DNA from: a virus
Length of the DNA: 64,000 nucleotides
IMG/VR virus record: IMGVR_UViG_3300038393_000909
Span: 1 to 64,000 of that record
Strand: one strand, 5' to 3'
The notes below the pieces were generated by a model that was not told where the DNA came from, ran no database searches, and worked only from the letters and a program-made list of their open reading frames with translations. Position 1 is the first letter of the stretch. Each line of letters begins with the position of its first letter. Below are positions 20,785 to 40,441 of this stretch, piece by piece. Position numbers and translations under genes: made by a program.

Positions 20785-20864
20785 GCCGTTTGCATGTTTG
20801 CTTGAATTCAAGCGCGTCGCAAACGGAGTTGCGCTACTGCAAACGCTGAGCGCAAATGCGCAAA

Positions 20865-20896
20865 GCCCTCGCCCTAACCGGCGGGGGTTTTTCTTT
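20865..20896 (+). terminator. rho-independent terminator
   Basis: GCCCTCGCC-loop-GGCGGGGGT followed by TTTTCTTT. Confidence 0.75.
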
Positions 20897-20962
20897 GTCC
20901 ACAGGGTTGGAACGGCTTGCTGCCTGTTTGCATTAGTTGTAACGAAGGGGAGGAGGTGGCCG

Positions 20963-21826
20963 ATGCAAATCAACATGCGCCGTTTGGTCGGCGTCGGTAT
21001 GAGCCAGGAGGTTCGCGAGGCACGCCAGGGCTGCATCGGTGGCTCGGACGCCCGTATCATCATGTCGGGCGATCAGAAGGCGATCGAGACCCTGTGGCGT
21101 GAGAAGCGCGGTGAGAAGGTGCCCAAGGATCTCTCCGAGGTCATCCTCGTCCAGCTCGGCAACGTCACCGAGAACCTGAACCTCGCCGTGTTCGAGGGGC
21201 AGACCGGTTCATTCGTTGCGGGCGAGCAGACACGGCCGGCGTACGAGGAATGGCCTATCGCCATGTCGACGCTCGACGGGCTCAAGTTTAATTCCCAGGA
21301 TGAATTCCTGGCTGGTGTCTCGCCGCTTGCAATCGTCGAGGCGAAGTTTGCCTTGCCGTTCCGGTGGACGCTGCAGACATCGATAGACAAGCACTACGCA
21401 CAAGTACAACATAACATGATGGTCACCGGTCTCAAACGTGGCTGGTTGTCTATCATCACGGGCGGTGGCCAGTACGCAAAGGTTGAGATCGAAGCTGACT
21501 ACTTCTACCAGATGGCGCTGCTCGATGCTGAGCAGGAGTTCTGGAAGTGTGTCGAGACTGGCCGGCGTCCTGGTGCACCTGAGATCGATGTACCTGTCCT
21601 TGAGGTCGTCGACGAACCGATAGACATGAGCACTAACAATGCCTTCGTTGATTTGGCTATCACTCTGCAGGAGACCTGTAAGTTCGCAGCTCAACATGAG
21701 AAGGCCAAGAAGGACATTAAGGAGTTGATGCCTAAGGGAGCCAAGATTGCGTTCGCAAGGGGCGTGACGATCTCCAGGGCTGTTAACGGGCGCATGACGG
21801 TCAAGGTAGACGGAGAAGCTGCGTGA
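20963..21826 (+). CDS. YqaJ/lambda-exonuclease-like recombination nuclease
   Basis: IGGSDA, LWREKRG, STLDG, EAK, YAQVQHNMMVTG. Confidence 0.88.
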   Translation: MQINMRRLVGVGMSQEVREARQGCIGGSDARIIMSGDQKAIETLWREKRGEKVPKDLSEVILVQLGNVTENLNLAVFEGQTGSFVAGEQTRPAYEEWPIAMSTLDGLKFNSQDEFLAGVSPLAIVEAKFALPFRWTLQTSIDKHYAQVQHNMMVTGLKRGWLSIITGGGQYAKVEIEADYFYQMALLDAEQEFWKCVETGRRPGAPEIDVPVLEVVDEPIDMSTNNAFVDLAITLQETCKFAAQHEKAKKDIKELMPKGAKIAFARGVTISRAVNGRMTVKVDGEAA

Positions 21827-22024
21827 TCCTGCCCCTGATCGTTTGCATTTCCGCATACATGGCTCTTGCTTTTGCCATGGCATTGGCATTAATTGGAATG
21901 GCAGGCGTCGCAGCGGACGCTGTCGGTATCCTCCCCTCCTCCCTGGTGGCGCCCTTCTACGGGTCGGCACTCATCGGAACGGCAGGGGCAAACATCATCG
22001 CACACAGTCTCTAAGGAGGACGCA

Positions 22025-22897
22025 GTGGCAGAGGTCAATTCCAACCTGAAGATCTGGGAGAAGGTCCAGCGCACTGACCCGAAGCGGACTAAGCCGTTCA
22101 AGGGTGCTGGTGGTTTCTCGGGTACAGCGATCAATGCAACCTACCTCGCACAGCGTGCGACCGAGGTGTTCGGTCCCATGGGCCTTGGCTGGGGCATGAA
22201 CATCATCGAGGAGAAGATCCTCGACTTCGGTGATGACAAGATCCACTCTCTGCGTGGCGAGCTGTGGTACGTTCTAGACGGCAAGACAGGATCGATCCAG
22301 CACTTCGGTCAGACGAAGATCTGCGGAAAGAACAAGCACGGTGCCTTCGTCGACGAGGATGCTCCGAAGAAATCACTCACCGACGTGATGTCGAAGTGTC
22401 TTAGCCTTCTCGGCTTCGGAGCTGACGTTCATCTTGGGCTCTATGATGACAACCGGTACGTGACGCATATCACGAACCAGATCGCTGATGAGCGCAGGGC
22501 TGCCCGTGAGGAATCTAAGGCTTCCAAGGATGCTGATGCCGAGCCCAAGGAAGATGCCAGCCAGGGTGATGGTGAGCAGCAGGCCAGCGACAACGTTGTC
22601 CCCCTGCAGCGCAAGGCCAAGGCTGAACCCGAGGTCCAGGCCGACCCGCAGACCGGTGAGATCGGGTCCGAGCCTCTCGACCTCGATGCCGAGATGACGG
22701 CGGCCGACGTGATCAAGAAGAAGATCGACGCCTACGACGATGCCAAGGCGCTCGGTGAGTACATGAACGATCGCGAGACCCAGGCGGACATGTTCCGTCT
22801 CGGCAAGGAAGTCCGTGAGCAGGTTCGTGACTACGCGATCAAGCGTCACGTCGAGCTGCGAGCCAAGGCGAAGGCCGCCGCCATCCCGGCCGAGTGA
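22025..22897 (+). CDS. single-strand annealing protein (Rad52/Sak-like)
   Basis: ATEVFGPMGLGWG, DEDAPKKSLTD..K..S.LGFGADV; lies next to the exonuclease. Confidence 0.7.
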   Translation: MAEVNSNLKIWEKVQRTDPKRTKPFKGAGGFSGTAINATYLAQRATEVFGPMGLGWGMNIIEEKILDFGDDKIHSLRGELWYVLDGKTGSIQHFGQTKICGKNKHGAFVDEDAPKKSLTDVMSKCLSLLGFGADVHLGLYDDNRYVTHITNQIADERRAAREESKASKDADAEPKEDASQGDGEQQASDNVVPLQRKAKAEPEVQADPQTGEIGSEPLDLDAEMTAADVIKKKIDAYDDAKALGEYMNDRETQADMFRLGKEVREQVRDYAIKRHVELRAKAKAAAIPAE

Positions 22898-23277
22898 GGA
22901 GACCTGACATGTCCAAGCCAACCGCAGAGAACCTGATCGCCGCCGAGGTGGAGCGCCAGCGCGCCATGTGGGGCGAGAGCAATGAGCGGGCCGATGCCAG
23001 CCAGGGTGAATTGATGCATGCCGCCATGGCGCAGCTCGACGCCCTGTACGACAAGCAGGCCGGCATCGGTGATGCCTTCGACGCCCCGCCGGCTGTCTAC
23101 CCGCTGAGCTGGGGTGGTTTCCGGGACTACGGTAGCGACATCGCCAACCTCGTGGTCGCCGTCGCCTTCCTGACCAACGAGATCGCTCGGAAGCTGCGGG
23201 CCGGCGAGGACTACACCCGCAAGTCGCGTAACCCGGATACGCAGCCATACACGGCCGACCAGCCGGCAGCGGTCTGA
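22894..23277 (+). CDS. hypothetical protein
   Basis: ORF track. Confidence 0.6.
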   Translation: MRRPDMSKPTAENLIAAEVERQRAMWGESNERADASQGELMHAAMAQLDALYDKQAGIGDAFDAPPAVYPLSWGGFRDYGSDIANLVVAVAFLTNEIARKLRAGEDYTRKSRNPDTQPYTADQPAAV

Positions 23278-23776
23278 GGCAGTTATGGGCGCACCGGTCC
23301 TTACGGGAAGGCGGCGCTACCGGATTCAGAAGCGGGTGTTTCGCCATCCGCTCCTGGTCCTGCAGCTCGAGGTCCAGGGCCTGCGGTGCCGCTACGCAGG
23401 CTTCGTCGACTGTGAGTACGAGCGCTGGTGGATCGATGCGGGTCCAGAGCACATCACCATCACCGGGGAATCGAAGTGACACCGCAGTCGGAGATCATCG
23501 GGTTCGAGCGGAAGATCGAGCTGATGCGGGAGCTGGGAGATCTGAGTGTGGAGCCGGTTGCCCCATTCCACTGGCTGGTAAAACACGTCTACGTGATCAT
23601 CGACCATCCCGACGGCTCGAGTACCGTGCCACAGGGGCAGGATACGAATCCGTATGGGGCGATCGAGAACCATTTCGCGATCCTCACGCAGCCCGGTGTG
23701 CATGTCATGACAGGGAAGCCGGACCGCTTGGTCGAGTGGGACCGGATCGGATGGCGAGACATCATCTAGATGCCAA

Positions 23777-23804
23777 GCGCAAGATAATGCGGCTTAGCTT
23801 GCGT
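23777..23804. other. 11-6-11 inverted repeat, dif/Xer-core-like site
   Basis: GCGCAAGATAA-TGCGGC-TTAGCTTGCGT shortly after a stop codon. Confidence 0.35.
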
Positions 23805-23829
23805 TCGGAATGACCCCGAGGAGGATGAG

Positions 23830-24096
23830 ATGAGCGAGTTATCCGAGATCCCCGACAACCCGCCCGGCTACGGCGACACCGTAGGACGCTGCATCTCGTT
23901 TGACCTTGGCAAGGTGCTCGCGGATGCGATGCGCTTCTGTGACCTAGCTGCCGGCGAGGGCCTGATGCTCAGGCATGATGCGGGCTTCTATCTGGACGCT
24001 GCCGACATCTGCGTGGAGTTCGCCAAGGCGTCGGGTGTTGAGCTTGGCTCACCGGAATACGAGGCGGCCGTCGCGGCGCTTGCGCGCAGCGCATAG
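23830..24096 (+). CDS. hypothetical protein
   Basis: GAGGAGG RBS. Confidence 0.6.
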   Translation: MSELSEIPDNPPGYGDTVGRCISFDLGKVLADAMRFCDLAAGEGLMLRHDAGFYLDAADICVEFAKASGVELGSPEYEAAVAALARSA

Positions 24097-24104
24097 GCCC
24101 GGCC

Positions 24105-24132
24105 TGTCGGCAAAACGGTCCTTATGCCGACA
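24105..24132. repeat. 28-bp res-site-I-like palindrome A1
   Basis: TGTCGGCAAAAC-GGTC-CTTATGCCGACA. Confidence 0.7.
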
Positions 24133-24153
24133 CAGAGGGGCATCGAACTTTTT

Positions 24154-24207
24154 TAGGGCAAATGGCCCTCATGCCCGTTGACAGGGTAGGGCAGATGGCC
24201 CTATAAC
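24154..24207 (+). promoter_or_regulatory. sigma70 promoter overlapped by two TAGGGCA(A/G)ATGGCCCT operators
   Basis: TTGACA 24178-24183, N18, TATAAC 24202-24207; operators at 24154-24169 and 24187-24203. Confidence 0.8.
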
Positions 24208-24251
24208 AGGTTCATCAGCAAGGGCGAATGAGCCCGGCGATGGAGAGCAAG

Positions 24252-24479
24252 ATGACCAAGCGCACTTTCCGGGTCGAGCAGGCTTTCGAATACGGGATCG
24301 GCAACGGCGTCAACGGCGCGGGCCGTCGCCCGAAGGTCACCGGCTTCTACGTCATTGAGAACGAGACCGGCCGGAAGGTGATCGGCGTCACCGCTTCCAG
24401 CATGAAGCCCGCCGCCGTTGATTGGGCTCGCAACAAGGCCGAGCAGCACCTCGACCATATCAGCCGGATGTACGCCTAA
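24252..24479 (+). CDS. hypothetical protein
   Basis: First gene after the promoter, GGAG RBS. Confidence 0.6.
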   Translation: MTKRTFRVEQAFEYGIGNGVNGAGRRPKVTGFYVIENETGRKVIGVTASSMKPAAVDWARNKAEQHLDHISRMYA

Positions 24480-24534
24480 CCACGCAACCGGGCGGGCTCA
24501 GACCCGCCCAACCTCTCATTCGAGGAGATGCGAA

Positions 24535-24732
24535 ATGCCGATGGATCGGTGGGGCTACTACGACGAGCAGGAGGCGCAGGCGCTCGACGCGCGAAACAAG
24601 CGCCTCGTCGAGCGGCTGAAAGCCGGCCTGCCAGACGACACGGCCGAACGGCTGGAACTCGCCAGACAGCGGGCCGCCGGAAACGAGTTCTACGCCCAGG
24701 CGCAAGCGGACAGTGAGATCCCGCTTGATTGA
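24535..24732 (+). CDS. hypothetical protein
   Basis: GAGGAG RBS. Confidence 0.55.
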   Translation: MPMDRWGYYDEQEAQALDARNKRLVERLKAGLPDDTAERLELARQRAAGNEFYAQAQADSEIPLD

Positions 24733-24907
24733 TGATCAATGGCACGTCGAAGTTGAGCAACTCCGCGCCGCGCACCGGGCCGCCGAGGCGCTGATCTATT
24801 CCCTGTTGGGCGACGAAGACGACGAGGACGAGCAAGCCAAGAAATTGCTCGCTTGGTCTAACGCCGCAGCAGCGCTCGACCACTCTACCACCGAGGAGAA
24901 TTAGGCG

Positions 24908-25102
24908 ATGGGCCAGATTGATCGAACCAAGCTCGCGAAGCTCGATGGGCTGATCCAAGACCTGCTCGACGAGATCGAGGACGCGGGCGAAGACGATGTG
25001 GCGGCCGAAGCGCTGTTCGAGCCGCTGAGCCAAGCAAGCGCGGCCCTGCATGCGGTCCTGACAACCTACGCAGTTCTGACGATGCCGCCCGCCAATGGCT
25101 GA
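24908..25102 (+). CDS. hypothetical protein
   Basis: GAGGAG RBS. Confidence 0.55.
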   Translation: MGQIDRTKLAKLDGLIQDLLDEIEDAGEDDVAAEALFEPLSQASAALHAVLTTYAVLTMPPANG

Positions 25103-25316
25103 CCGGCGCATCTACAGCCTCGACGAGCTTGAGGCCATGGCCGCACCTGACGGCACGCGCGGCGACTACCGCAGCGCCTCCGCCTGCCGAGCCCATCGCG
25201 ACGGTGACTGCTTCTGGGCGAAGTGCCCGCAGATTGCCGACGACGAGCCGAACGCTACTGGGCGCCACTGCCCTTTGGACGAGCCGCCGTTCCGGGCGGG
25301 GGACGAGGACGAATGA
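25095..25316 (+). CDS. small Cys/His-rich protein
   Basis: CRAHRDGDCFWAKCPQ..GRHCPLD. Confidence 0.6.
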   Translation: MADRRIYSLDELEAMAAPDGTRGDYRSASACRAHRDGDCFWAKCPQIADDEPNATGRHCPLDEPPFRAGDEDE

Positions 25317-25555
25317 CCGCCGCCCAGCTCCGCGACGCCCTCAAGTCGCTCGGGCTCTCGCAATCAGCGGGAGCCCGCCTCCTCGGCGTGGACGGCAGGA
25401 CCATGCGCCGCTGGTGCGCCGAGCCCGGCCCGAGCGCCCGCGAGGTGCCGCCGCCCGTCGCCCGGTTCCTCTGGCTCATGCAGGCCGCCGGGATCGGCCC
25501 CGCCGAGGTGGAGCGGCTTCTGGAGCCGTTCCTTCGCGAAACCGAAACCCCGTGA
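25313..25555 (+). CDS. XRE-like HTH regulator
   Basis: MTAAQLRDALKSLGLSQSAGARLLGVDGRTMRRW. Confidence 0.8.
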   Translation: MTAAQLRDALKSLGLSQSAGARLLGVDGRTMRRWCAEPGPSAREVPPPVARFLWLMQAAGIGPAEVERLLEPFLRETETP

Positions 25556-25575
25556 AAACGGCCGAATACCCGACA
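25548..25575. repeat. 28-bp res-site-I-like palindrome A2
   Basis: CCCCGTGAAAAC-GGCC-GAATACCCGACA, overlapping the HTH stop codon. Confidence 0.65.
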
Positions 25576-25585
25576 TCAGGAGAAG

Positions 25586-25927
25586 GTGATGAGTGAGCAC
25601 ACGCCGGGGCCTTGGTGCAACATGATTGGCAACGCCATCGGGGCCTATGGCAGCGTCGATACCTATGGCGGCGCAGTGCTGATCCCCGTCGCGCGCGTCG
25701 AGCAGACCGGAGAACAACAGGATAGCGACGGGCGCGTCTTCACGCTCGGCGGCTCCAGTGAGGCAAACGCCCGGTTGATCGCTGCCGCGCCCGATCTGCT
25801 CGCGGCGCTCAAATCCGCCCGCGCTCAGCTTGAGAGCTACGAGGAAGCTCGCAGCGGCGAAAGCTACAACGACACGCAGATCAATGCCGCCATCGCCAAG
25901 GCCGAGGGCAGCGACCACAACATCTAG
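25586..25927 (+). CDS. HTPGPW...ANARLIAAAP family protein (cassette between A2 and A3)
   Basis: Motif pair; RBS directly after site A2. Confidence 0.75.
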   Translation: MMSEHTPGPWCNMIGNAIGAYGSVDTYGGAVLIPVARVEQTGEQQDSDGRVFTLGGSSEANARLIAAAPDLLAALKSARAQLESYEEARSGESYNDTQINAAIAKAEGSDHNI

Positions 25928-25929
25928 TG

Positions 25930-25957
25930 TGTCGGGATACTGGTCGTTTTCACGACA
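25930..25957. repeat. 28-bp res-site-I-like palindrome A3
   Basis: TGTCGGGATACT-GGTC-GTTTTCACGACA, 2 bp after a stop codon. Confidence 0.7.
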
Positions 25958-25977
25958 TCGAAAATGGAGGCCAAGCT

Positions 25978-26268
25978 ATGAGCGATCATAATTATGTCGT
26001 TGGACGTGTCGTGTTCGGCAGCGTCTCGGACAGTCTCTATCGCGAGGCACTAAAGCAGCGTGACAACGAAACGGCACGGGCCAGCGAGAGCGTGGCTGAA
26101 GTGGCTCGCTTGCGCGCCGAGAACGCCCGGTTGCGCGAGGCGCTAGAGGAGGTCCGCGATTGGCATCCGATGTTCAATGGCGGAGTAAAGCGCGACACAG
26201 CGGAAGATCTCGTCGGCTATATCAAGTACCTCCAGGGTGTCGCGTACAACGCGCTAGTAAAACCCTGA
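25978..26268 (+). CDS. hypothetical protein (cassette between A3 and A4)
   Basis: GGAGG RBS after A3. Confidence 0.65.
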   Translation: MSDHNYVVGRVVFGSVSDSLYREALKQRDNETARASESVAEVARLRAENARLREALEEVRDWHPMFNGGVKRDTAEDLVGYIKYLQGVAYNALVKP

Positions 26269-26269
26269 G

Positions 26270-26297
26270 CGTCGGAAAACTGGCCGTTTTCCCGACA
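26270..26297. repeat. 28-bp res-site-I-like palindrome A4 (extra half-sites at 26342 and 26370)
   Basis: CGTCGGAAAACT-GGCC-GTTTTCCCGACA, 1 bp after a stop codon. Confidence 0.72.
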
Positions 26298-26385
26298 TCG
26301 CGCCGGGTCGGTCCCGGAGCCCATCAAAACAGCCCCGATCCTGTCGGGAAAACGTGTCAGCCTATCAAATGTCGGAGAAACGGTA

Positions 26386-26622
26386 ATGGCGAGCAATCCC
26401 GACGACATCTTCGGACCTTGGGATGGGCCGCCCGATCTGGTGAGCGCCATTGCAGCCGAGGTCATGGGCTTGAAGTGGACCCGTGCCGACACCGAGGACG
26501 AACACTGCGACCGCTACGGCGAGGTGCAGGAGGTCGTTGCCGCGACCATCGCCCGGATGCTGGCCGAGCACCCGACGCACGATTTCCTAGCGGCCTTCTC
26601 CCCCGCCCCGGCCGGGGAGTGA
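26386..26622 (+). CDS. hypothetical protein
   Basis: Stop codon abuts empty site S0. Confidence 0.6.
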   Translation: MASNPDDIFGPWDGPPDLVSAIAAEVMGLKWTRADTEDEHCDRYGEVQEVVAATIARMLAEHPTHDFLAAFSPAPAGE

Positions 26623-26647
26623 GACGGAGACGGTATCCCCCATACCA
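26623..26647. other. empty att-like core site S0
   Basis: GACGGA-gacggta-TCCCCCATACCA. Confidence 0.75.
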
Positions 26648-26664
26648 GCAACAGGAGAGCGAAA

Positions 26665-26829
26665 ATGGAACAGCACAAGATCATCGAAGCGGCAGACACG
26701 CCCGGCAGCATTGGCCCCGGCGACATCGCCCTCACGATCCAATGGCCAGACGGCACGGAGACCGTCGAGCACGTCTCAGAGCAGGCCGCACGGGTGCTCG
26801 GGTACACCTATCCCGACGAGGACGAGTGA
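26665..26829 (+). CDS. 54-aa hypothetical cassette gene X1
   Basis: AGGAG RBS; MEQHKIIEAADTPGSIGPGDIALTIQWPDG... Confidence 0.65.
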   Translation: MEQHKIIEAADTPGSIGPGDIALTIQWPDGTETVEHVSEQAARVLGYTYPDEDE

Positions 26830-26835
26830 GACGGA

Positions 26836-27278
26836 TGGGATTGCGGACATTTCGGCAAGTATTGCTGAGGAGCATTAAATGAAAGCGGCGCACCTTGAAT
26901 ATCTGAAACGTATTGCGACCGATTTAGACCAGATTGGCGCCACAGGCAGAGCTAACCAATTACGGTATATCATCGGTCAACTGTCCGCCCAATCCGCCGC
27001 GCATGATAGGGCCGATGTTGGGGCCGGATGGGTGCTCGTTCCAGCGGAACCGATGCCGGAAATGGTTGCCGCATGGTGGCGCGTAAAGAACACCGGCTCG
27101 ACGGAGCCGGGCGAGACCGGCGAGGATCGCAGCGATTGCGCCGCATACCGGGCGATGGTCGCCGCCGCACCTCGACCGCCGGCAAAAGTTGGGGCCTGAG
27201 TTGGGGCCGGGCCGTTATGGGTTATCCCATAACGAAATTACTTCAACGGCTTAGCGAAGATTTCCGATTTCTGGGATT
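26836..27278 (+). mobile_element. mini integrative element E1 (duplicated 7-mer TGGGATT)
   Basis: 7-mer at 26836-26842 and 27272-27278; arm pairs at 27005/27017 and 27188/27200; IHF-like box at 27239-27256. Confidence 0.75.
26879..27199 (+). CDS. E1 cargo ORF (WVLVPAEP..EM..YRAMVAAAP domain)
   Basis: GAGGAG RBS; reads through the arm repeats. Confidence 0.65.
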   Translation: MKAAHLEYLKRIATDLDQIGATGRANQLRYIIGQLSAQSAAHDRADVGAGWVLVPAEPMPEMVAAWWRVKNTGSTEPGETGEDRSDCAAYRAMVAAAPRPPAKVGA

Positions 27279-27302
27279 TCCCCCATACCAAGAGAGGAAG
27301 CT

Positions 27303-27590
27303 ATGACGGCCTTAGAATACCTCAATGAGGCGGCCACGCCCGGCCAATGGTTCGCCGGGCATTGGGGCGGCCAGTGCCATAAGAAGCACAGCCACTCGGG
27401 CCGAGGTGGTGCCGATCCGTGTGTCTATGAACCTGTTCGGTATGACGGCCCCGAGAACGGCATAGCGACAGAGGATGGCAGATCTGTCCTTGCGAGTAGC
27501 TATGACGGGTTCGAGATGCTGCCTGCCAATGTCGAGTTCGTCGTCGCGCTCGTGAATGCTTTCCGATCCGGCAAGCTCGTGGAGCGGTAG
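27303..27590 (+). CDS. hypothetical cassette gene X2 (ATPGQW..NVEFVVALVNA)
   Basis: GAGG RBS after CCCCCATACCA. Confidence 0.7.
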   Translation: MTALEYLNEAATPGQWFAGHWGGQCHKKHSHSGRGGADPCVYEPVRYDGPENGIATEDGRSVLASSYDGFEMLPANVEFVVALVNAFRSGKLVER

Positions 27591-27603
27591 GCAATTCGAC
27601 GGA

Positions 27604-28079
27604 AGCGATCACGGGCAATTCGGCAAGCATTACACGGGAGTGACAAGTTATGGCGGCTGACCTCGCAGAACTCCGAAGGATGTGCGGAGAATTGGACAAC
27701 CGCGGATACAGTGCGGAAGCGCAAGAGTTTCGCGAGGCCATCGCCGAAATCTCCGCCCTACGCGCCGCGCAGGTTGGGGCCGGTGATGGGGCCGGATGGA
27801 AACCGATTGAGACAGCGCCGAAGTGTGGCAAGCGCATCATCGGATGGGTGCCAGGGTGGGAATACGCCCGCTGCTACGCATTCGTCACAGCCGGCGGCGA
27901 ACCGTTCGGGTGGCGCAACGAAGCCGGTCGCGTGATGGAACACGAACAGCCGACCCATTGGCTGCCGTGGCCCGAACCGCCGCCCGCTGTTGGGGCCGAT
28001 GTTGGGACCGGCACTGATCTACCCGCGTCTGCCTCCTGATACTTCAAGGGCTTAGCGGACATTTCAGGAAGTAGCGATC
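27604..28079 (+). mobile_element. mini integrative element E2 (duplicated 7-mer AGCGATC)
   Basis: 7-mer at 27604-27610 and 28073-28079; arm pairs at 27773/27785 and 27989/28001; IHF-like box at 28040-28057. Confidence 0.75.
27650..28039 (+). CDS. E2 cargo ORF with DUF551-like domain
   Basis: WKPIETAPK...PTHWLPWPEPP. Confidence 0.7.
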   Translation: MAADLAELRRMCGELDNRGYSAEAQEFREAIAEISALRAAQVGAGDGAGWKPIETAPKCGKRIIGWVPGWEYARCYAFVTAGGEPFGWRNEAGRVMEHEQPTHWLPWPEPPPAVGADVGTGTDLPASAS

Positions 28080-28103
28080 CCCCCCATACCAAGCGAGGAA
28101 GCG

Positions 28104-28250
28104 ATGAGCGACGAAACGAAGGCCAAGCTGATCTCTGAGCTTGCCCAACTTCTAGAGGCTCTGCGGACAGGCGAGCTGGACCATTTCGATGTCGGAGACT
28201 GGCTTGAGGATAACGGCAGCCGCGTGCTCGCCGCGCTCAAGGCCGAATAG
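28104..28250 (+). CDS. 48-aa hypothetical cassette gene X3
   Basis: GAGG RBS; MSDETKAKLISELAQLLEALRTGELDHFDVGDWLEDNG... Confidence 0.65.
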   Translation: MSDETKAKLISELAQLLEALRTGELDHFDVGDWLEDNGSRVLAALKAE

Positions 28251-28259
28251 TTCGACGGA

Positions 28260-28681
28260 CGGGGCCACGGAAATTTTGGTAAGTAATCAGCGATGGTGGT
28301 AAATTATGATGGTGTCGCGGAATACATTGGTAATGATTGCGCAAGTTGCGGAGGAGCAAAATCGCAGCAGATTAAACACACCTGTTCGGGTTGAGGCGGG
28401 CGAACTGTCCGCCAATCACGAGGGAGGGGTTGGGGTGAATGTTGGGATGGAAAAGAGCATCGAAACCCGCGCAGCGGATGCCCTGGATGCGATCTACGAG
28501 GAGACGATGAGCAAGCACGTCAACATCGCGAGTTGCAGGGATGCACGTCGCGCTATCATCGTCCAAGCTATTCGCGATGCGCTGGCAGATGTTGGGGTAA
28601 ATGTTGGGGTAAGTGCCCCGCAAGCATAGCCCGGAGCCTGATACTTCAGGCACTTAGCGAGCACTTTGCGCGGACGGGGCC
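28260..28681 (+). mobile_element. mini integrative element E3 (duplicated 7-mer CGGGGCC)
   Basis: 7-mer at 28260-28266 and 28675-28681; arm pairs at 28429/28441 and 28591/28603; IHF-like box at 28642-28659. Confidence 0.75.
28306..28629 (+). CDS. E3 cargo ORF
   Basis: Arm repeats are read as VGVNVG twice. Confidence 0.55.
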   Translation: MMVSRNTLVMIAQVAEEQNRSRLNTPVRVEAGELSANHEGGVGVNVGMEKSIETRAADALDAIYEETMSKHVNIASCRDARRAIIVQAIRDALADVGVNVGVSAPQA

Positions 28682-28704
28682 TCCGAAATACTAGGGAGAG
28701 AGCA

Positions 28705-28920
28705 ATGCAGTGGACCGTATGGGACGAAGACGACGTTGACGGCGATCCGCGGTGTGACCCGCTCGCCCGCGCCTGCAAAGAATGGTTCATCGGCATCTGG
28801 CCCGCCGACAAAGACGAGCCGCTAGTTCGGATCTGTGTCGGCGGCCGGGATGGCGAACACACCGCCCATCACCTCGCGGACAGCTTGAACGACGCGAAGG
28901 CATTCCCGCCGGCAGTATGA
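28705..28920 (+). CDS. hypothetical cassette gene X4
   Basis: GGGAG RBS; stop codon overlaps empty site S4. Confidence 0.65.
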   Translation: MQWTVWDEDDVDGDPRCDPLARACKEWFIGIWPADKDEPLVRICVGGRDGEHTAHHLADSLNDAKAFPPAV

Positions 28921-28939
28921 CGGACAAGGGTTCCGCCAT
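28917..28939. other. empty att-like core site S4
   Basis: ATGACGGA-caagggt-TCCGCCAT (7/8 inverted repeat around a 7-bp spacer). Confidence 0.7.
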
Positions 28940-29000
28940 CAGGTGGATGGTGCCATGAATAGGTGATCCGCGGCTTGACGCTGCGGAACTCCCGTGGCAT

Positions 29001-29020
29001 CGTTTGCATTAATTCGAACG
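29001..29020 (+). promoter_or_regulatory. consensus copy of the genome-wide 20-bp motif CGTTTGCATTAATTCGAACG
   Basis: Exact reverse complement at 47641-47660; about 15 degenerate copies elsewhere. Confidence 0.8.
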
Positions 29021-29281
29021 AGGCGATCATGTCGGAAGCGGACGAGTTCACACGCGTCGCACTGGAGGTGATCGAGCTGTTCCCATCAACACCGGACGAG
29101 CTGCGTGAGTGGTTCATGCTCGAGGTCGGGACGCATCGGAAGCCAGGGCGTGCCCAGCTCGAGTATGGGCTGAAACCGATTCAGGTCTACCGACTTGAAC
29201 AGGCATGCCGCCGCAAGGTCGAAGAGTATGACGCATGGTCCGCCATGCTCGACCGCGCATTCGCATAGGAGAAAGCCAGCC

Positions 29282-29737
29282 ATGAGTAGCGAGTGCCCTC
29301 CCCTGATGCTGAGCGTGATGCCCAACGGCCTGCTCAAGCCGCTCAACCGCTTCGACCAGGAGCACATCTCCAGCCGTTACGCCGTCGGCTCCCGCGTTCG
29401 CGCCAAGATCACCCAGCCGCGCTCTGTTCCCCGCCACAGGCTGTACTGGTCCGTGCTCGCCGAGGTGGTGACCGCCACGGGCGACAGGTGGTGCGACGTC
29501 GAGGACCTGCACGAGTCGGTCAAGATCCGGCTTCGCATGCTGCGCGGTGTCTCGATGCTCGGTGGTGGCGTTCGCTACGTCACCCAGTCAATCAGCTTCG
29601 AATCGATGGACGAGGGGCAGTTCAAGACCTTCTTCGACAAGGCCATGGCCGTGATCACCGAGGACACCGGCATCGACACGCAGGCGATCCTCAAGGAACT
29701 AACGTCTAAGAGTGAGACCCGTGAAGCAGTCGCATAA
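29282..29737 (+). CDS. DUF1367/NinB-like recombination-associated protein
   Basis: PRSVPRHRLYW, SISFESMDEGQFKTFF. Confidence 0.7.
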   Translation: MSSECPPLMLSVMPNGLLKPLNRFDQEHISSRYAVGSRVRAKITQPRSVPRHRLYWSVLAEVVTATGDRWCDVEDLHESVKIRLRMLRGVSMLGGGVRYVTQSISFESMDEGQFKTFFDKAMAVITEDTGIDTQAILKELTSKSETREAVA

Positions 29738-38948: not shown

Positions 38949-39302
38949 ATGTCTGCGGCCATGACGATTACTGACGATACCCCGCTGCGTCTGGCGGACG
39001 CGGTTGTAATTGCATTTCCCCATGGAGGCATGACTGAGGCCGGGCTGCGCAGGGAGGCCAAGCGCGGGCGCCTTGAAATCGAACGGATCGCCGGTAAGGA
39101 CTTCGTCACCCTTGCCGCGATCCGAGAGATGAGAACCCGATGCCACGTCCAGCGAAGGGCGCAAGACTCTGGCTCAGGCCCGAGCGCCTCGACGATCAGG
39201 GACGCGTGCGTGAGCGATCGACATGGATCATCCGGGATGGATCAAAGACGGTCAGCACGGGATGCGCTCCTGAAGCGCGTGCGGACGCTGAAAAGTGCCT
39301 GA
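38949..39302 (+). CDS. excisionase (Xis-like)
   Basis: PLRLADAV..AFPHGGMTEAGLRREAKRGRLEIERIAGKDF; overlaps the 5' end of the integrase. Confidence 0.75.
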   Translation: MSAAMTITDDTPLRLADAVVIAFPHGGMTEAGLRREAKRGRLEIERIAGKDFVTLAAIREMRTRCHVQRRAQDSGSGPSASTIRDACVSDRHGSSGMDQRRSARDALLKRVRTLKSA

Positions 39303-40441
39303 GCGCCTACATTGAGCAGAAGTACCGCCCGGCGCGCAGGCGGCGTGAGATCGAGGAGATCGGGATCGCTGACGTCCTGGCGATCTACCTCGAGGATACC
39401 CGCGAATCCCAGGCCAACAAGCGCGCCTTCGACGGGCGCATCGAGCGCCTCGCTGAATGGTGGGGCGAGAAGACGCTGTCCGAGGTCACGGGCGAGACGT
39501 GCCGGGCCTATGTCGAGCACCGCGCATCCGCCGAGCGACAAGCGGTCAGTGGCAAGCGCGGAGCCGTCGGGAGAAAGGGCACCAGCGGCGGAGCGCGCCG
39601 CGACCTTGAGGACCTGCGCGCGGCGATCAATCATCACCACGGACAAGGACTCCACCGCGAGGCCATCCGCGTGATCCTGCCCGAGAAGGGGGCGGCCCGC
39701 GATCGATGGCTGACCCGGTCCGAGGCCGCGCGCCTCGTCTGGTTCTGCTGGCGCTACCGCGATACCCAGACCTGGAACAAGGGCACGCGCGCCGGCAAGA
39801 GCGTCGTGACCAACAAGCGGTCGCTGCGCCATATCGCGCGCTTCATCCTGATCGGGCTCTATACCGGGACGCGGGCCGGGGCCATCGCTTCAGCCTCGCC
39901 CTATAAGAGCGCCGGTCACTCTTGGGTCGATCTCGAGAGCGGGCGGTTCTACCGGCTCGCCGAGGGCAAGAAGGCGACGAACAAGCGACAGCCGACCGCG
40001 CGCATCCCATCGCGCCTGCTCGCCCATCTCAGGCGATGGTCCAGAGCGACGCAGGGCAAGGACGGGCCGCCCGTCATGCGGACCCATTTCGTCGAATGGA
40101 GGGGCAAGCCGGTCGGGTCGGTGAAGGTCGCTTTCGGCCGGGCCGTGCGCGCGGTCGGCCTGGGCGATGACGTGTCGCCCCACACCCTGCGGCACACCGC
40201 CGCGACGTGGCTCATGCAGCGCGGCGTCGACAAATACGAGGCGGCCGGATTCCTCGGCATGTCGCTCAAGATGATCGACGAGGTCTACGGCCACCACCAT
40301 CCCGATTTCCAGGACAGCATCGACGCGGCGTTCGCGACCCGCAAGCCGGCGAATCAGGGTCCGCACCGCTTCGCCGGACGGCACGTTTCTGTTGGCATAA
40401 CTGTGGGCGTAGAGGGTGACGCCGCCAAGGATATGGTGTAA
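39140..40441 (+). CDS. int: tyrosine integrase
   Basis: YTGTRAGAI (R), KR, SPHTLRHTAATW, VYGHH (Y). Confidence 0.93.
   Translation: MPRPAKGARLWLRPERLDDQGRVRERSTWIIRDGSKTVSTGCAPEARADAEKCLSAYIEQKYRPARRRREIEEIGIADVLAIYLEDTRESQANKRAFDGRIERLAEWWGEKTLSEVTGETCRAYVEHRASAERQAVSGKRGAVGRKGTSGGARRDLEDLRAAINHHHGQGLHREAIRVILPEKGAARDRWLTRSEAARLVWFCWRYRDTQTWNKGTRAGKSVVTNKRSLRHIARFILIGLYTGTRAGAIASASPYKSAGHSWVDLESGRFYRLAEGKKATNKRQPTARIPSRLLAHLRRWSRATQGKDGPPVMRTHFVEWRGKPVGSVKVAFGRAVRAVGLGDDVSPHTLRHTAATWLMQRGVDKYEAAGFLGMSLKMIDEVYGHHHPDFQDSIDAAFATRKPANQGPHRFAGRHVSVGITVGVEGDAAKDMV

What the first reader, a model, noticed from the sequence alone, without database searches (positions are those of the whole stretch)
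23770..28945. A 5-kb region punctuated by three classes of recombination-like sites
Seen: in order, one 11-6-11 dif-like site, four res-like sites and five att-like sites, each at the end of a small co-oriented gene. I noticed no such sites in the other small-gene regions. Inference: this is a dedicated plasticity locus that recruits several host or MGE site-specific recombinases to acquire or drop accessory (possibly anti-defence) genes.
Basis: inference. Interest (0 to 1): 0.7.

Follow-up and report, generated by a model that had tools for sequence, protein, structure and literature searches.

The report
Shuffling small-gene array with conserved spacers
This 5-kb stretch of a temperate phage is a hyper-variable array of small genes whose spacers are kept almost unchanged in seven otherwise distant phages while the genes between them differ; the sites are real, but nothing shows that dif, res or att recombinases act on them.

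Summary
The repeated sites exist, are far above chance, and occur only in 23.77-28.95 kb of this 98-kb phage.

Seven IMG/VR phage contigs carry homologous arrays. Their backbones are distant (sheath 58% aa; other shared proteins 37-61%). All 78 DNA matches to them (72-97% identity) fall inside 23772-28952. Intergenic bases are matched by 2.38 relatives on average, coding bases by 0.45. About half of the match ends lie within 12 nt of a stop codon, a start codon or a GTTGGGG edge, against about 10 of 78 for random placement. Most cargo ORFs have no homologue in any related array.

The recombinase reading is not supported:
- This phage has no serine recombinase, and its one tyrosine integrase lies 10 kb away.
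- Array-bearing relatives carry different recombinases.
- The 28-bp palindromes show no arm covariation.
- Crossovers fall at several points inside single spacers.

Best reading: conserved regulatory spacers serve as portable homology for homologous recombination, as with PeSL cassettes of T4-type phages. I class it as a new variant of a known kind. The scan had noted this same stretch before under other titles.

The parts
20798..22897 (+). Left backbone flank: YqaJ-type exonuclease (20798-21826) and Rad52-like annealing protein (21893-22897)
   Evidence: Pfam YqaJ. The homologues include one that a source names 'RAD52 pathway protein'. In distant relatives these two genes are directly followed by homologues of 29029-29268 and 29195-29737.
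23777..23804 (.). 11-6-11 palindrome, the 'dif-like' site. It is the leftmost element shared with related arrays.
   Evidence: Sequence. It is conserved in L199 (perfect 11/11 arms), L187 and L202, with a variable central 6 bp, and homology to relatives starts at its left edge. As an RNA hairpin it is weak (z -1.1).
24105..24132 (.). 28-bp palindrome, class A copy 1
24155..24207 (+). Two copies of a 15-bp palindrome (24155-24169 and 24188-24202) bracketing a promoter-like site: TTGACA, 17 nt, CTATAA (24178-24206)
   Evidence: The palindrome occurs only here in the genome. The hexamers were read from the sequence. The consensus scanner did not list this site because its second hexamer lacks the required final T.
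24252..24509 (+). Moron-like unit: 75-aa ORF (24252-24479) followed by a G+C-rich terminator hairpin (24490-24509)
   Evidence: Hairpin -16.2 kcal/mol, z -3.3, matched by 0 of 200 shuffles. The ORF has no family above cut-off.
24535..25555 (+). Tightly packed run of five small ORFs. The last (25313-25555) is a helix-turn-helix regulator.
   Evidence: Coordinates checked. HTH_31 and Xre-like hits are below cut-off. PHROG transcriptional-regulator families match. A homologue in L199 is likewise followed by a class A site.
25551..25577 (.). Class A site, copy in the opposite orientation
   Evidence: inverted pairs I6, I8
25589..25927 (+). Cargo ORF of 112 aa (phrog_1273, function unknown)
   Evidence: among related arrays a homologue occurs only in L187
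25930..25957 (.). Class A 28-bp palindrome between a stop codon and the next ribosome-binding site
   Evidence: matched at 81-87% identity in L171, L199 and L187
25978..26268 (+). Cargo ORF of 96 aa
   Evidence: no homologue in related arrays
26270..26382 (.). Class A palindrome (26270-26297) plus two direct half-sites (26342-26354 and 26370-26382) in one 117-nt spacer
   Evidence: this spacer is matched in 5 of 7 relatives at 77-84% identity
26386..26829 (+). Cargo ORFs of 78 aa (26386-26622) and 54 aa (26665-26829)
   Evidence: the second has a 63% homologue only in L162
26830..26878 (+). Spacer cassette upstream of gene A1
   Evidence: 30 nt are 97% identical in L162 and L187, and up to 6 of 7 relatives match here
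26879..27199 (+). Gene A1: conserved 41-aa N-terminal part, GTTGGGG pair (27005-27028), variable insert, then a second pair (27188-27208) interrupted by a TGA stop
   Evidence: L191 has CGA where this copy has TGA
27213..27234 (+). 9-bp-stem hairpin after gene A1
   Evidence: -14.7 kcal/mol, z -2.1
27239..27302 (+). Spacer cassette upstream of gene B1, running up to the start codon
   Evidence: 78% identical to 28040-28107. Matched in 5-6 relatives, and the match drops to zero 4 nt before the ATG.
27303..27590 (+). Cargo gene B1 (95 aa)
   Evidence: No DNA match in any relative. The only protein homologue is in L187, where it follows a class A spacer instead.
27591..27649 (+). Spacer cassette upstream of gene A2
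   Evidence: 94% identical in L162
27650..28039 (+). Gene A2: N-terminal part, GTTGGGG pair (27773-27796), DUF551-like insert, second pair (27989-28011), then a 16-aa tail
   Evidence: 27600-27794 is 96.4% identical to L162, where the insert is unrelated and the tail is homologous again. The DUF551 assignment rests on leads only.
28040..28103 (+). Spacer cassette upstream of gene B2
28104..28250 (+). Cargo gene B2 (48 aa)
   Evidence: No homologue in related arrays
28251..28305 (+). Spacer cassette upstream of gene A3
28306..28629 (+). Gene A3: GTTGGGG pairs at 28429-28450 and 28591-28612; a TAG stop falls four codons before the ancestral TGA
   Evidence: L193 has GAG where this copy has TAG
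28630..28704 (+). Spacer cassette upstream of gene B3, a hybrid of two cassette types
   Evidence: 84-89% identical in L162, L199 and L193, and matched in up to 6 relatives
28705..28920 (+). Cargo gene B3 (71 aa)
   Evidence: No homologue in related arrays
28908..28967 (+). Last shared cassette, a 7-bp-stem palindrome plus ribosome-binding site, followed by a three-codon ORF remnant. This is the right end of the array.
   Evidence: 85-91% identical to two cassettes in L162 that precede full genes there
29001..29268 (+). Right backbone flank: a copy of the genome-wide 20-bp motif (29001-29020) and a conserved 79-aa gene (29029-29268)

Best explanation
The region is a hyper-plastic array of about 17 small early ORFan genes. 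It is inserted between the phage's exonuclease/annealase genes and a conserved backbone gene.

The genes are separated by short, orientation-specific composite spacers. Each runs from just after one stop codon to the next ribosome-binding site and start codon. I infer that these spacers carry expression signals of some kind: ribosome-binding context, operator-like palindromes and an occasional terminator.

Because the same spacers recur within the array and in other phages, they act as portable stretches of homology. Homologous recombination or gene conversion between spacers swaps, adds or deletes the ORFs between them.

A second layer works inside one gene family (genes A1-A3). Two in-frame GTTGGGG repeat pairs flank a variable central insert, so inserts can be exchanged while the N-terminal part and the C-terminal tail are kept.

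Shown: conservation of spacers against turnover of cargo, breakpoints at the sites, and re-assortment within spacers. Inferred: that the spacers are regulatory, and that the exchange is homologous rather than site-specific.
For: - All motif families are real and confined to the region.
- Seven IMG/VR contigs hold homologous arrays.
- All 78 blastn matches to them (72-97% identity) fall within 23772-28952.
- Intergenic bases are matched by 2.38 relatives on average, coding bases by 0.45. 41 of 78 left ends and 40 of 78 right ends lie within 12 nt of a stop or start codon or a GTTGGGG edge. Random placement gives about 10 +/- 3, with a maximum of 23 in 2000 trials.
- 9-10 of 17 cargo ORFs have no homologue in any related array. 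Another four have one in a single array, and one of those sits behind a different spacer type.
- The backbones are far more diverged than the spacers: sheath 58% aa in G006, and other shared proteins 37-61%.
- The closest backbone relatives (sheath 63-66%) lack the array entirely.
- The array sits in different genomic contexts in different phages.
- In L162 the copy of gene A2 has a 96% identical spacer and N-terminal part, an unrelated insert, and then a homologous tail. The breaks fall at the GTTGGGG pairs.
- Tail type, 4-nt core and downstream type of one spacer family are re-assorted among 12 copies.
- Inside the window, three tandem two-gene units share spacers but not cargo.
- The same logic has been shown experimentally for PeSL cassettes (PMC2839356, PMC4122927).
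Against: - No sigma-70-type promoter is detected in the spacers: the scan found 1 site in 9 kb, on the wrong strand. I could not derive a -35/-10 pair from the aligned copies.
- Only two hairpins, at 24490 and 27213, fold better than shuffles. The 'promoter plus terminator' content that defines PeSLs is therefore not shown.
- RecT, ERF and AAA_24 families have no match in the seven array-bearing relatives. This phage's Rad52-like protein has none in four of the five searched, and only a marginal one in G006. A phage annealase cannot be the common agent, and host RecA would have to be assumed.
- The conserved words flanking the re-assorting 4-nt core are only 7-12 nt long, which is short for classical homologous recombination.
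- No read-level evidence of excision or circles could be obtained.
Confidence: 0.6

Rival explanations
1. The spacers are purely regulatory signals (operators, promoters or translational operators of a shared early programme), kept by purifying selection. They play no part in recombination. Cargo turns over by illegitimate recombination, and only products that leave the signals intact survive.
For: - The spacers always end in a ribosome-binding site and start codon and are strand-specific.
- The right half of class A is conserved by sequence, not by pairing, as expected for a protein- or ribosome-binding site.
- A helix-turn-helix gene directly precedes a class A site in two phages.
- A clear operator/promoter/terminator unit exists at 24155-24509.
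Against: - Spacers are 80-97% identical between phages whose core proteins are 37-61% identical. Selection on short signals alone would not keep about 200 nt, including synonymous sites of the N-terminal part of gene A2, at 96%.
- Re-assortment of sub-motifs inside one spacer shows that recombination does occur there.
Confidence: 0.2
2. One reading: the palindromes and spacer cores are true site-specific recombination sites. Host XerCD or an unrecognised recombinase uses them to insert and excise gene cassettes.
For: - The 11-6-11 palindrome has conserved arms and a variable 6-bp centre in four phages, and it marks the left edge of shared sequence.
- One spacer family has two conserved words flanking a 4-nt core that takes only four values in 12 copies and is never repeated within one array.
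- The ORFs are co-oriented and cassette-like.
Against: - This phage has no serine recombinase, and its one tyrosine integrase lies 10 kb away.
- Relatives with the same sites carry different recombinases, more than 20 kb from the array.
- The GTTGGGG words occur only as direct repeats, with no inverse core nearby, so the attC geometry is absent.
- The left arm of class A decays without compensation.
- Five candidate host genomes hold no dif-like match.
- By my own rough estimate, the non-repetition of cores within arrays would arise by chance about one time in five.
Confidence: 0.08
3. The repeats are only the residue of recent tandem duplication of a two-gene unit within this phage. They have no function and no role in exchange.
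For: Three tandem units share blocks at 62-79% identity with no indels. The 'exact geometry' is explained by descent: the GTTGGGG-to-stop distance is a conserved 48-nt tail-coding stretch, and two copies merely acquired early stop codons.
Against: The same spacers occur in seven other phages with other cargo and in other genomic contexts. Cargo genes of the three units are unrelated and of different length.
Confidence: 0.05

Closest known systems
PeSL (promoter-early stem-loop) mobile regulatory cassettes in the hyperplastic regions of T4-type phages (Arbiol et al. 2010, PMC2839356; Comeau et al. 2014, PMC4122927)
   Same: Repeated composite intergenic cassettes of about 50-100 nt run from a stop codon to the next Shine-Dalgarno sequence and start codon. 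They are concentrated in a region of small ORFans. Indels and replacements between related phages are bounded by them.
   Different: - The hosts here are G+C-rich temperate myoviruses and phage-plasmid-like elements, not lytic T4-type phages.
- No sigma-70 consensus is present, and few stable stem-loops.
- Several unrelated cassette classes are arranged in a conserved order.
- Cassettes are shared between phages with very diverged backbones.
- An added in-frame repeat allows swapping of a protein insert.
- Mini-circles were not tested.
Morons and boundary (linker) sequences of lambdoid phages; mosaicism by relaxed homologous recombination through Rad52-like recombinases (De Paepe et al. 2014, PMC3945230)
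   Same: The unit at 24155-24509 has promoter-like, ORF and terminator parts, as a moron does. Short conserved sequences lie at module borders. This phage encodes an exonuclease and a Rad52-like annealase immediately upstream.
   Different: The borders here form a dense, ordered series of repeats. The other array-bearing phages lack a detectable annealase of the families searched.
Integron gene-cassette arrays (IntI, attI, attC)
   Same: Co-oriented small ORFs, each followed by a conserved site; cargo varies between relatives.
   Different: There is no adjacent IntI-type integrase, and no attC-type imperfect palindrome with inverse and direct core sites. The sites include the ribosome-binding site of the next gene, and crossovers occur at several positions.
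Junction motifs of polymorphic toxin genes (for example VENN in CdiA), recalled from my own knowledge
   Same: A conserved N-terminal part, a short conserved junction, a variable C-terminal part and a variable small gene directly downstream.
   Different: The proteins are tiny (about 100-130 aa). The variable part is an internal insert between two repeat pairs, with a conserved tail. There is no evidence of toxicity or immunity.
Chromosomal dif sites (XerCD) and res sites of serine resolvases
   Same: 11-6-11 and 12-4-12 palindromic geometry.
   Different: No cognate enzyme is nearby, the res sub-site organisation is absent, only one arm of the 28-bp site is conserved, and candidate host genomes hold no match.

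Membership tests
PeSL-type regulatory cassette | Intergenic position, upstream of ORFans, concentrated in a hyperplastic region | tested here: met
PeSL-type regulatory cassette | Contains a sigma-70-like early promoter | tested here: not met
   The consensus scan found no + strand site in 22-31 kb. No -35/-10 pair emerged from the aligned copies. The only good candidate is the separate site at 24178-24206.
PeSL-type regulatory cassette | Contains a stable stem-loop acting as terminator or attenuator | tested here: inconclusive
   Only 24490-24509 (z -3.3) and 27213-27234 (z -2.1) beat shuffles; the other cassettes do not. The class A helix shows no covariation.
PeSL-type regulatory cassette | Indels and replacements between related phages are bounded by the cassettes | tested here: met
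PeSL-type regulatory cassette | Excised cassette mini-circles | not testable with these tools
XerCD dif site | 28-bp site with 11-bp arms and a 6-bp centre | tested here: met
   23777-23804
XerCD dif site | Arms match the host's dif / XerC-XerD binding consensus | tested here: inconclusive
   Five candidate host genomes gave no match better than the control pattern, but the true host is unknown. Against E. coli dif, recalled from memory, only 5/11 and 6/11 arm positions agree.
Serine-resolvase res site | Cognate resolvase gene in the element | tested here: not met
   PF00239 is absent from the 98-kb record. Where it is present in relatives it lies more than 20 kb from the array.
Serine-resolvase res site | Inverted-repeat dimer-binding site conserved on both arms | tested here: not met
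   15 copies were aligned. 64% of cells are paired, the same as in shuffles; one compensatory change was seen; only the right half is conserved.
Integron cassette array | Adjacent IntI-type tyrosine recombinase with attI and Pc | tested here: not met
   The integrase lies 10 kb downstream. Three complete array-bearing phages have no tyrosine recombinase at all.
Integron cassette array | attC: imperfect palindrome with inverse core RYYYAAC and core GTTRRRY | tested here: not met
   GTTGGGG occurs only on the + strand in the array, with no inverse core nearby.
Moron | Own promoter, ORF and terminator inserted between backbone genes | tested here: met
   24155-24509: the promoter-like hexamers were read from the sequence, the operator pair is unique in the genome, and the hairpin is strong. 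Function was not tested.
Polymorphic-toxin-like junction architecture | Conserved N-terminal part, conserved junction motif, variable distal part | tested here: met
Polymorphic-toxin-like junction architecture | Toxic variable domain with a cognate immunity gene | not tested
   The inserts resemble DUF551 and other small phage domains of unknown function.

The most novel reading that the evidence does not exclude
The array is a phage-borne cassette system that runs on true site-specific exchange. The 11-6-11 palindrome would be the entry or anchor site. The spacer cores (two conserved words around a 4-nt variable centre) would be heterospecific crossover sites used by a host or unrecognised recombinase. 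That would make it an integron-like gene-capture platform without an IntI integrase, shared among unrelated temperate phages.
Probability: 0.07. Interest if true: 0.85.

Novelty: new variant of a known kind. Interest (0 to 1): 0.55.

Why it matters
How phages gain and lose the small early genes that often decide host takeover and counter-defence is still understood in only a few model groups.

This locus offers a second, independent example of gene shuffling guided by spacers, outside T4-type phages. It occurs in G+C-rich temperate phages and phage-plasmid-like elements of environmental Proteobacteria. Spacers are exchanged between backbones that share only 37-61% protein identity.

It also shows an in-frame repeat that allows insert swapping inside a small protein family.

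The eight arrays give a ready set of natural variants. They can be used to map exchange junctions, to test whether homology or a recombinase drives the exchange, and to mine ORFan cargo for function.

Tried and rejected
- Megablast of 23-30 kb against 50,697 phage records: no match.
- Single-protein locus searches with the annealase and the sheath in IMG/VR: no close relative.
- Relatives of a virus record cannot be drawn.
Read-level junctions and circles could therefore not be examined.
- Rfam at E<=1: only a chance 5.8S match. No tRNA in the genome.
- RNA hairpin reading of the dif-like site, the class A sites and the spacer cassettes: not better than shuffles, with no covariation.
- Sigma-54 and ECF-type promoter readings of the spacers, checked by eye: spacing or boxes do not fit.
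- attC reading of GTTGGGG: rejected, since the words are direct repeats only.
- 'Base-exact geometry' as evidence of a structured site: rejected. It is a conserved 48-nt tail-coding stretch with two secondary stop codons.
- Host dif mimicry: no match in five candidate host genomes.
- Phage annealase as the common agent: RecT, ERF, AAA_24 and this phage's Rad52-like protein are not found in the other array-bearing phages.
- Distant Rad52-anchored loci (161 loci) carry none of the motifs.
- The exact-pattern scan of IMG/VR gave 27 loci, about the number I expected by chance. Only those that also carried the other motif families were accepted.

Full report
CONTEXT

The window is the first 64 kb of a 98,228-bp single-contig IMG/VR virus record with about 61% G+C. 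It encodes:
- a contractile-tail sheath, a tape-measure-like protein with an M15 peptidase domain, a class II ribonucleotide reductase and one tyrosine integrase at 39140-40441;
- a YqaJ-type exonuclease and a Rad52-like annealing protein at 20798-22897.

It has no serine recombinase and no tRNA. Prophages with the same annealase occur in Bradyrhizobium and Methylobacteriaceae, so a Hyphomicrobiales-type host is likely but not shown.

THE OBSERVATION

Region 23770-28945 holds about 17 co-oriented ORFs of 48-129 aa, with coordinates checked. The site classes are all present.

- The 11-6-11 palindrome is at 23777-23804.
- The 28-bp palindromes (class A) are at 24105, 25551, 25930 and 26270, with two direct half-sites at 26342 and 26370.
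- From 26830 onward every spacer is built from a few recurring sub-motifs.

Each family is well above chance and is found nowhere else in the genome.

Eight of the 12 genomic copies lie in 27017-28609, always on the + strand and in frame.

By contrast, a genome-wide 20-bp motif sits at about 17 gene starts, including 21881 and 29001 on either side of the region.

INTERNAL ANATOMY

23.8-26.4 kb is heterogeneous. It contains:
- a moron-like unit: two copies of a unique 15-bp palindrome bracketing TTGACA-17-CTATAA, a 75-aa ORF, and a strong terminator hairpin at 24490-24509 with z -3.3;
- a packed run of five ORFs ending in a helix-turn-helix gene;
- ORFs separated by class A sites.

26.83-28.92 kb is three tandem two-gene units. 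Each unit has this order: spacer, gene A, spacer, gene B.
- Genes A share a 41-aa N-terminal part, a GTTGGGG pair, a non-homologous insert, a second pair and a short tail.
- Genes B are unrelated to one another (95, 48 and 71 aa).
- The homology blocks between units stop at the repeat pairs and at the start and stop codons.

COMPARATIVE TEST

Backbone relatives:
- The closest ones found are three proviruses with sheath identity of 63-66% aa. They have the exonuclease and annealase directly followed by homologues of 29029-29268 and 29195-29737.
- They contain no DNA match to the array.
- The whole 22.9-29.0 kb block is therefore an insertion relative to them.

Finding related arrays:
- A protein search with gene A2 found two homologues that keep the N-terminal part and the tail but carry unrelated inserts.
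- Fetching their contigs and scanning IMG/VR for one spacer word gave seven contigs from two metagenomes. All of them carry all the motif families together.

Backbone divergence of these seven contigs:
- Sheath identity is 58% aa in the 122.9-kb phage, and other shared proteins are 37-61% identical.
- Three are complete phages of about 70 kb. They have a small serine recombinase and no tyrosine integrase, and the one examined (L199) carries a ParA-like ATPase gene. Others have a tyrosine integrase.

Position of the array:
- In this phage it lies after the annealase.
- In one relative it lies after a DnaE-like polymerase.
- In the others it lies between the integrase or partition side and the late genes.

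Where the DNA matches fall:
- All 78 blastn matches between the window and these contigs (72-97% identity) lie inside 23772-28952.
- Coverage is concentrated on the spacers: 2.38 relatives per intergenic base against 0.45 per coding base. It falls to zero within a few bases of start codons.
- 41 left ends and 40 right ends of the 78 matches lie within 12 nt of a stop codon, a start codon or a repeat-pair edge. Random placement gives about 10 +/- 3, with a maximum of 23 in 2000 trials.

Cargo:
- 9-10 of the 17 cargo ORFs have no homologue in any related array.
- Four have one in a single array.
- The homologue of 27303-27590 follows a class A spacer in L187 rather than the spacer type it follows here.

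The clearest single case is 27600-27794, which covers a spacer plus the N-terminal part of gene A2. It is 96.4% identical in L162. Homology ends at the last base of the repeat pair and resumes 11 nt before the second pair.

They coincide.

WHAT THE SITES ARE NOT

The 11-6-11 palindrome:
- It is conserved in three relatives, and its arms are perfect in L199. Its centre varies, and it is the leftmost shared element.
- This is compatible with a protein-binding site, but nothing ties it to XerCD. Five candidate host genomes have no match beyond the control, and as an RNA hairpin it is unremarkable.

Class A:
- I aligned 15 copies. Only the right half is conserved.
- The proposed helix is paired in 64% of cells, the same as in shuffles, with one compensatory change.
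- It is therefore neither a maintained hairpin nor a symmetric dimer site.
- It sits 8-25 nt upstream of ribosome-binding sites.

Other points:
- GTTGGGG has no inverse partner, so an attC-like fold is excluded.
The distances are 51 nt from the second repeat pair to the next spacer word and 114-115 nt to the next ATG.
- This follows from a conserved 48-nt tail-coding stretch followed directly by the spacer.
- Two of the three window copies merely have secondary stop codons: TGA for CGA in one, TAG for GAG in the other.
- No single recombinase type is shared by the array-bearing phages.

MECHANISM

Within one spacer family of 12 copies, three adjacent segments of 40 nt or less occur in many combinations:
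- the tail type;
- the 4-nt core between two conserved words;
- the downstream type.

Exchanges therefore occur at more than one point inside a spacer. Hybrid spacers are also seen in the window, at 26623, 28040 and 28630.

Taken together with spacer identities of 80-97% between diverged backbones, this fits recurrent homologous exchange or gene conversion at conserved spacers. This is the mechanism shown for PeSL cassettes of T4-type phages (PMC2839356, PMC4122927). In this phage it would plausibly be helped by its own exonuclease and Rad52-like annealase (compare PMC3945230, listed).

Weak points:
- No sigma-70 promoter and few stable stem-loops are seen in the spacers, so their regulatory nature is inferred from position only.
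- The other array-bearing phages lack a detectable annealase of the families searched.
- The conserved words are short.
- No reads could be examined.

A site-specific mechanism therefore cannot be excluded. I give it about 7-8%.

CARGO

Nearly all ORFs lack Pfam families above cut-off. Exceptions and leads:
- PHROGs place 25589-25927 in phrog_1273, of unknown function.
- The inserts of genes A1 and A2 match the C-terminal parts of larger phage proteins.
- A2's insert looks DUF551-like, on leads only.
- Related arrays hold DUF551 proteins, zinc-ribbon proteins and an HNH_3 endonuclease.

The anti-defence idea was not tested.

VERDICT

- The plasticity reading is supported by an explicit pangenome test.
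- The recombinase reading is not supported.
- The closest known system is PeSL-mediated modular shuffling. This locus differs from it in host group, in cassette content, in the ordered multi-class layout, in being shared across diverged backbones and in the in-frame insert-swapping repeat. I class it as a new variant of a known kind.

Noticed in passing
window 2441-59727 (for example 21881, 29001, 59708): A genome-wide 20-bp A+T-rich pseudo-palindrome lies just upstream of about 17 gene starts on both strands. It flanks the array but is absent from it. It is probably this phage's own promoter or operator element.
   Followed up: partly
G000:C1 95100-95500 (outside the window): A non-coding stretch holds several TTTGGAAT repeats, four copies of an 11-nt G+C-rich word, and two copies of the reverse complement of GTTGGGG, each followed by a TTAGCG word. 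These are the same short words as in the array, in another arrangement. It may be an origin or a regulatory region.
   Followed up: no
L171 9062-9430: An HNH_3 homing-type endonuclease gene (32 bits, above cut-off) sits inside the related array, followed by a low-G+C stretch. It may be a local driver of gene conversion.
   Followed up: partly
L199 (G013), L171 (G012), L187 (G014): Three complete array-bearing phages of about 70 kb have a small serine recombinase and no tyrosine integrase. One has direct terminal repeats. L199 (G013) carries a ParA-like ATPase gene near the array. Together this looks phage-plasmid-like.
   Followed up: partly
window 22894-23277: This 127-aa gene lies right after the annealase here. 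In relatives its homologue lies 4-9 kb further downstream, and in G006 it lies about 18 kb from the array. It is a backbone gene that changes position.
   Followed up: partly
window 28956-28967: A three-codon ORF remnant follows the last shared cassette, where L162 has full-length genes. It marks the junction between the array and the backbone.
   Followed up: partly
window 23853-23885; L171 7838-7870: A 33-nt stretch coding for an N-terminal peptide is 91% identical between two otherwise different genes. In L171 it is joined to a DUF551-like domain. This is another possible in-frame junction.
   Followed up: no
L003, L004, L007, L098, L101 at about 5.5-6.1 kb: Distant relatives have tandem repeats with a period of about 60 nt some 4 kb upstream of the exonuclease gene. 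They may be iterons inside a replication gene.
   Followed up: no
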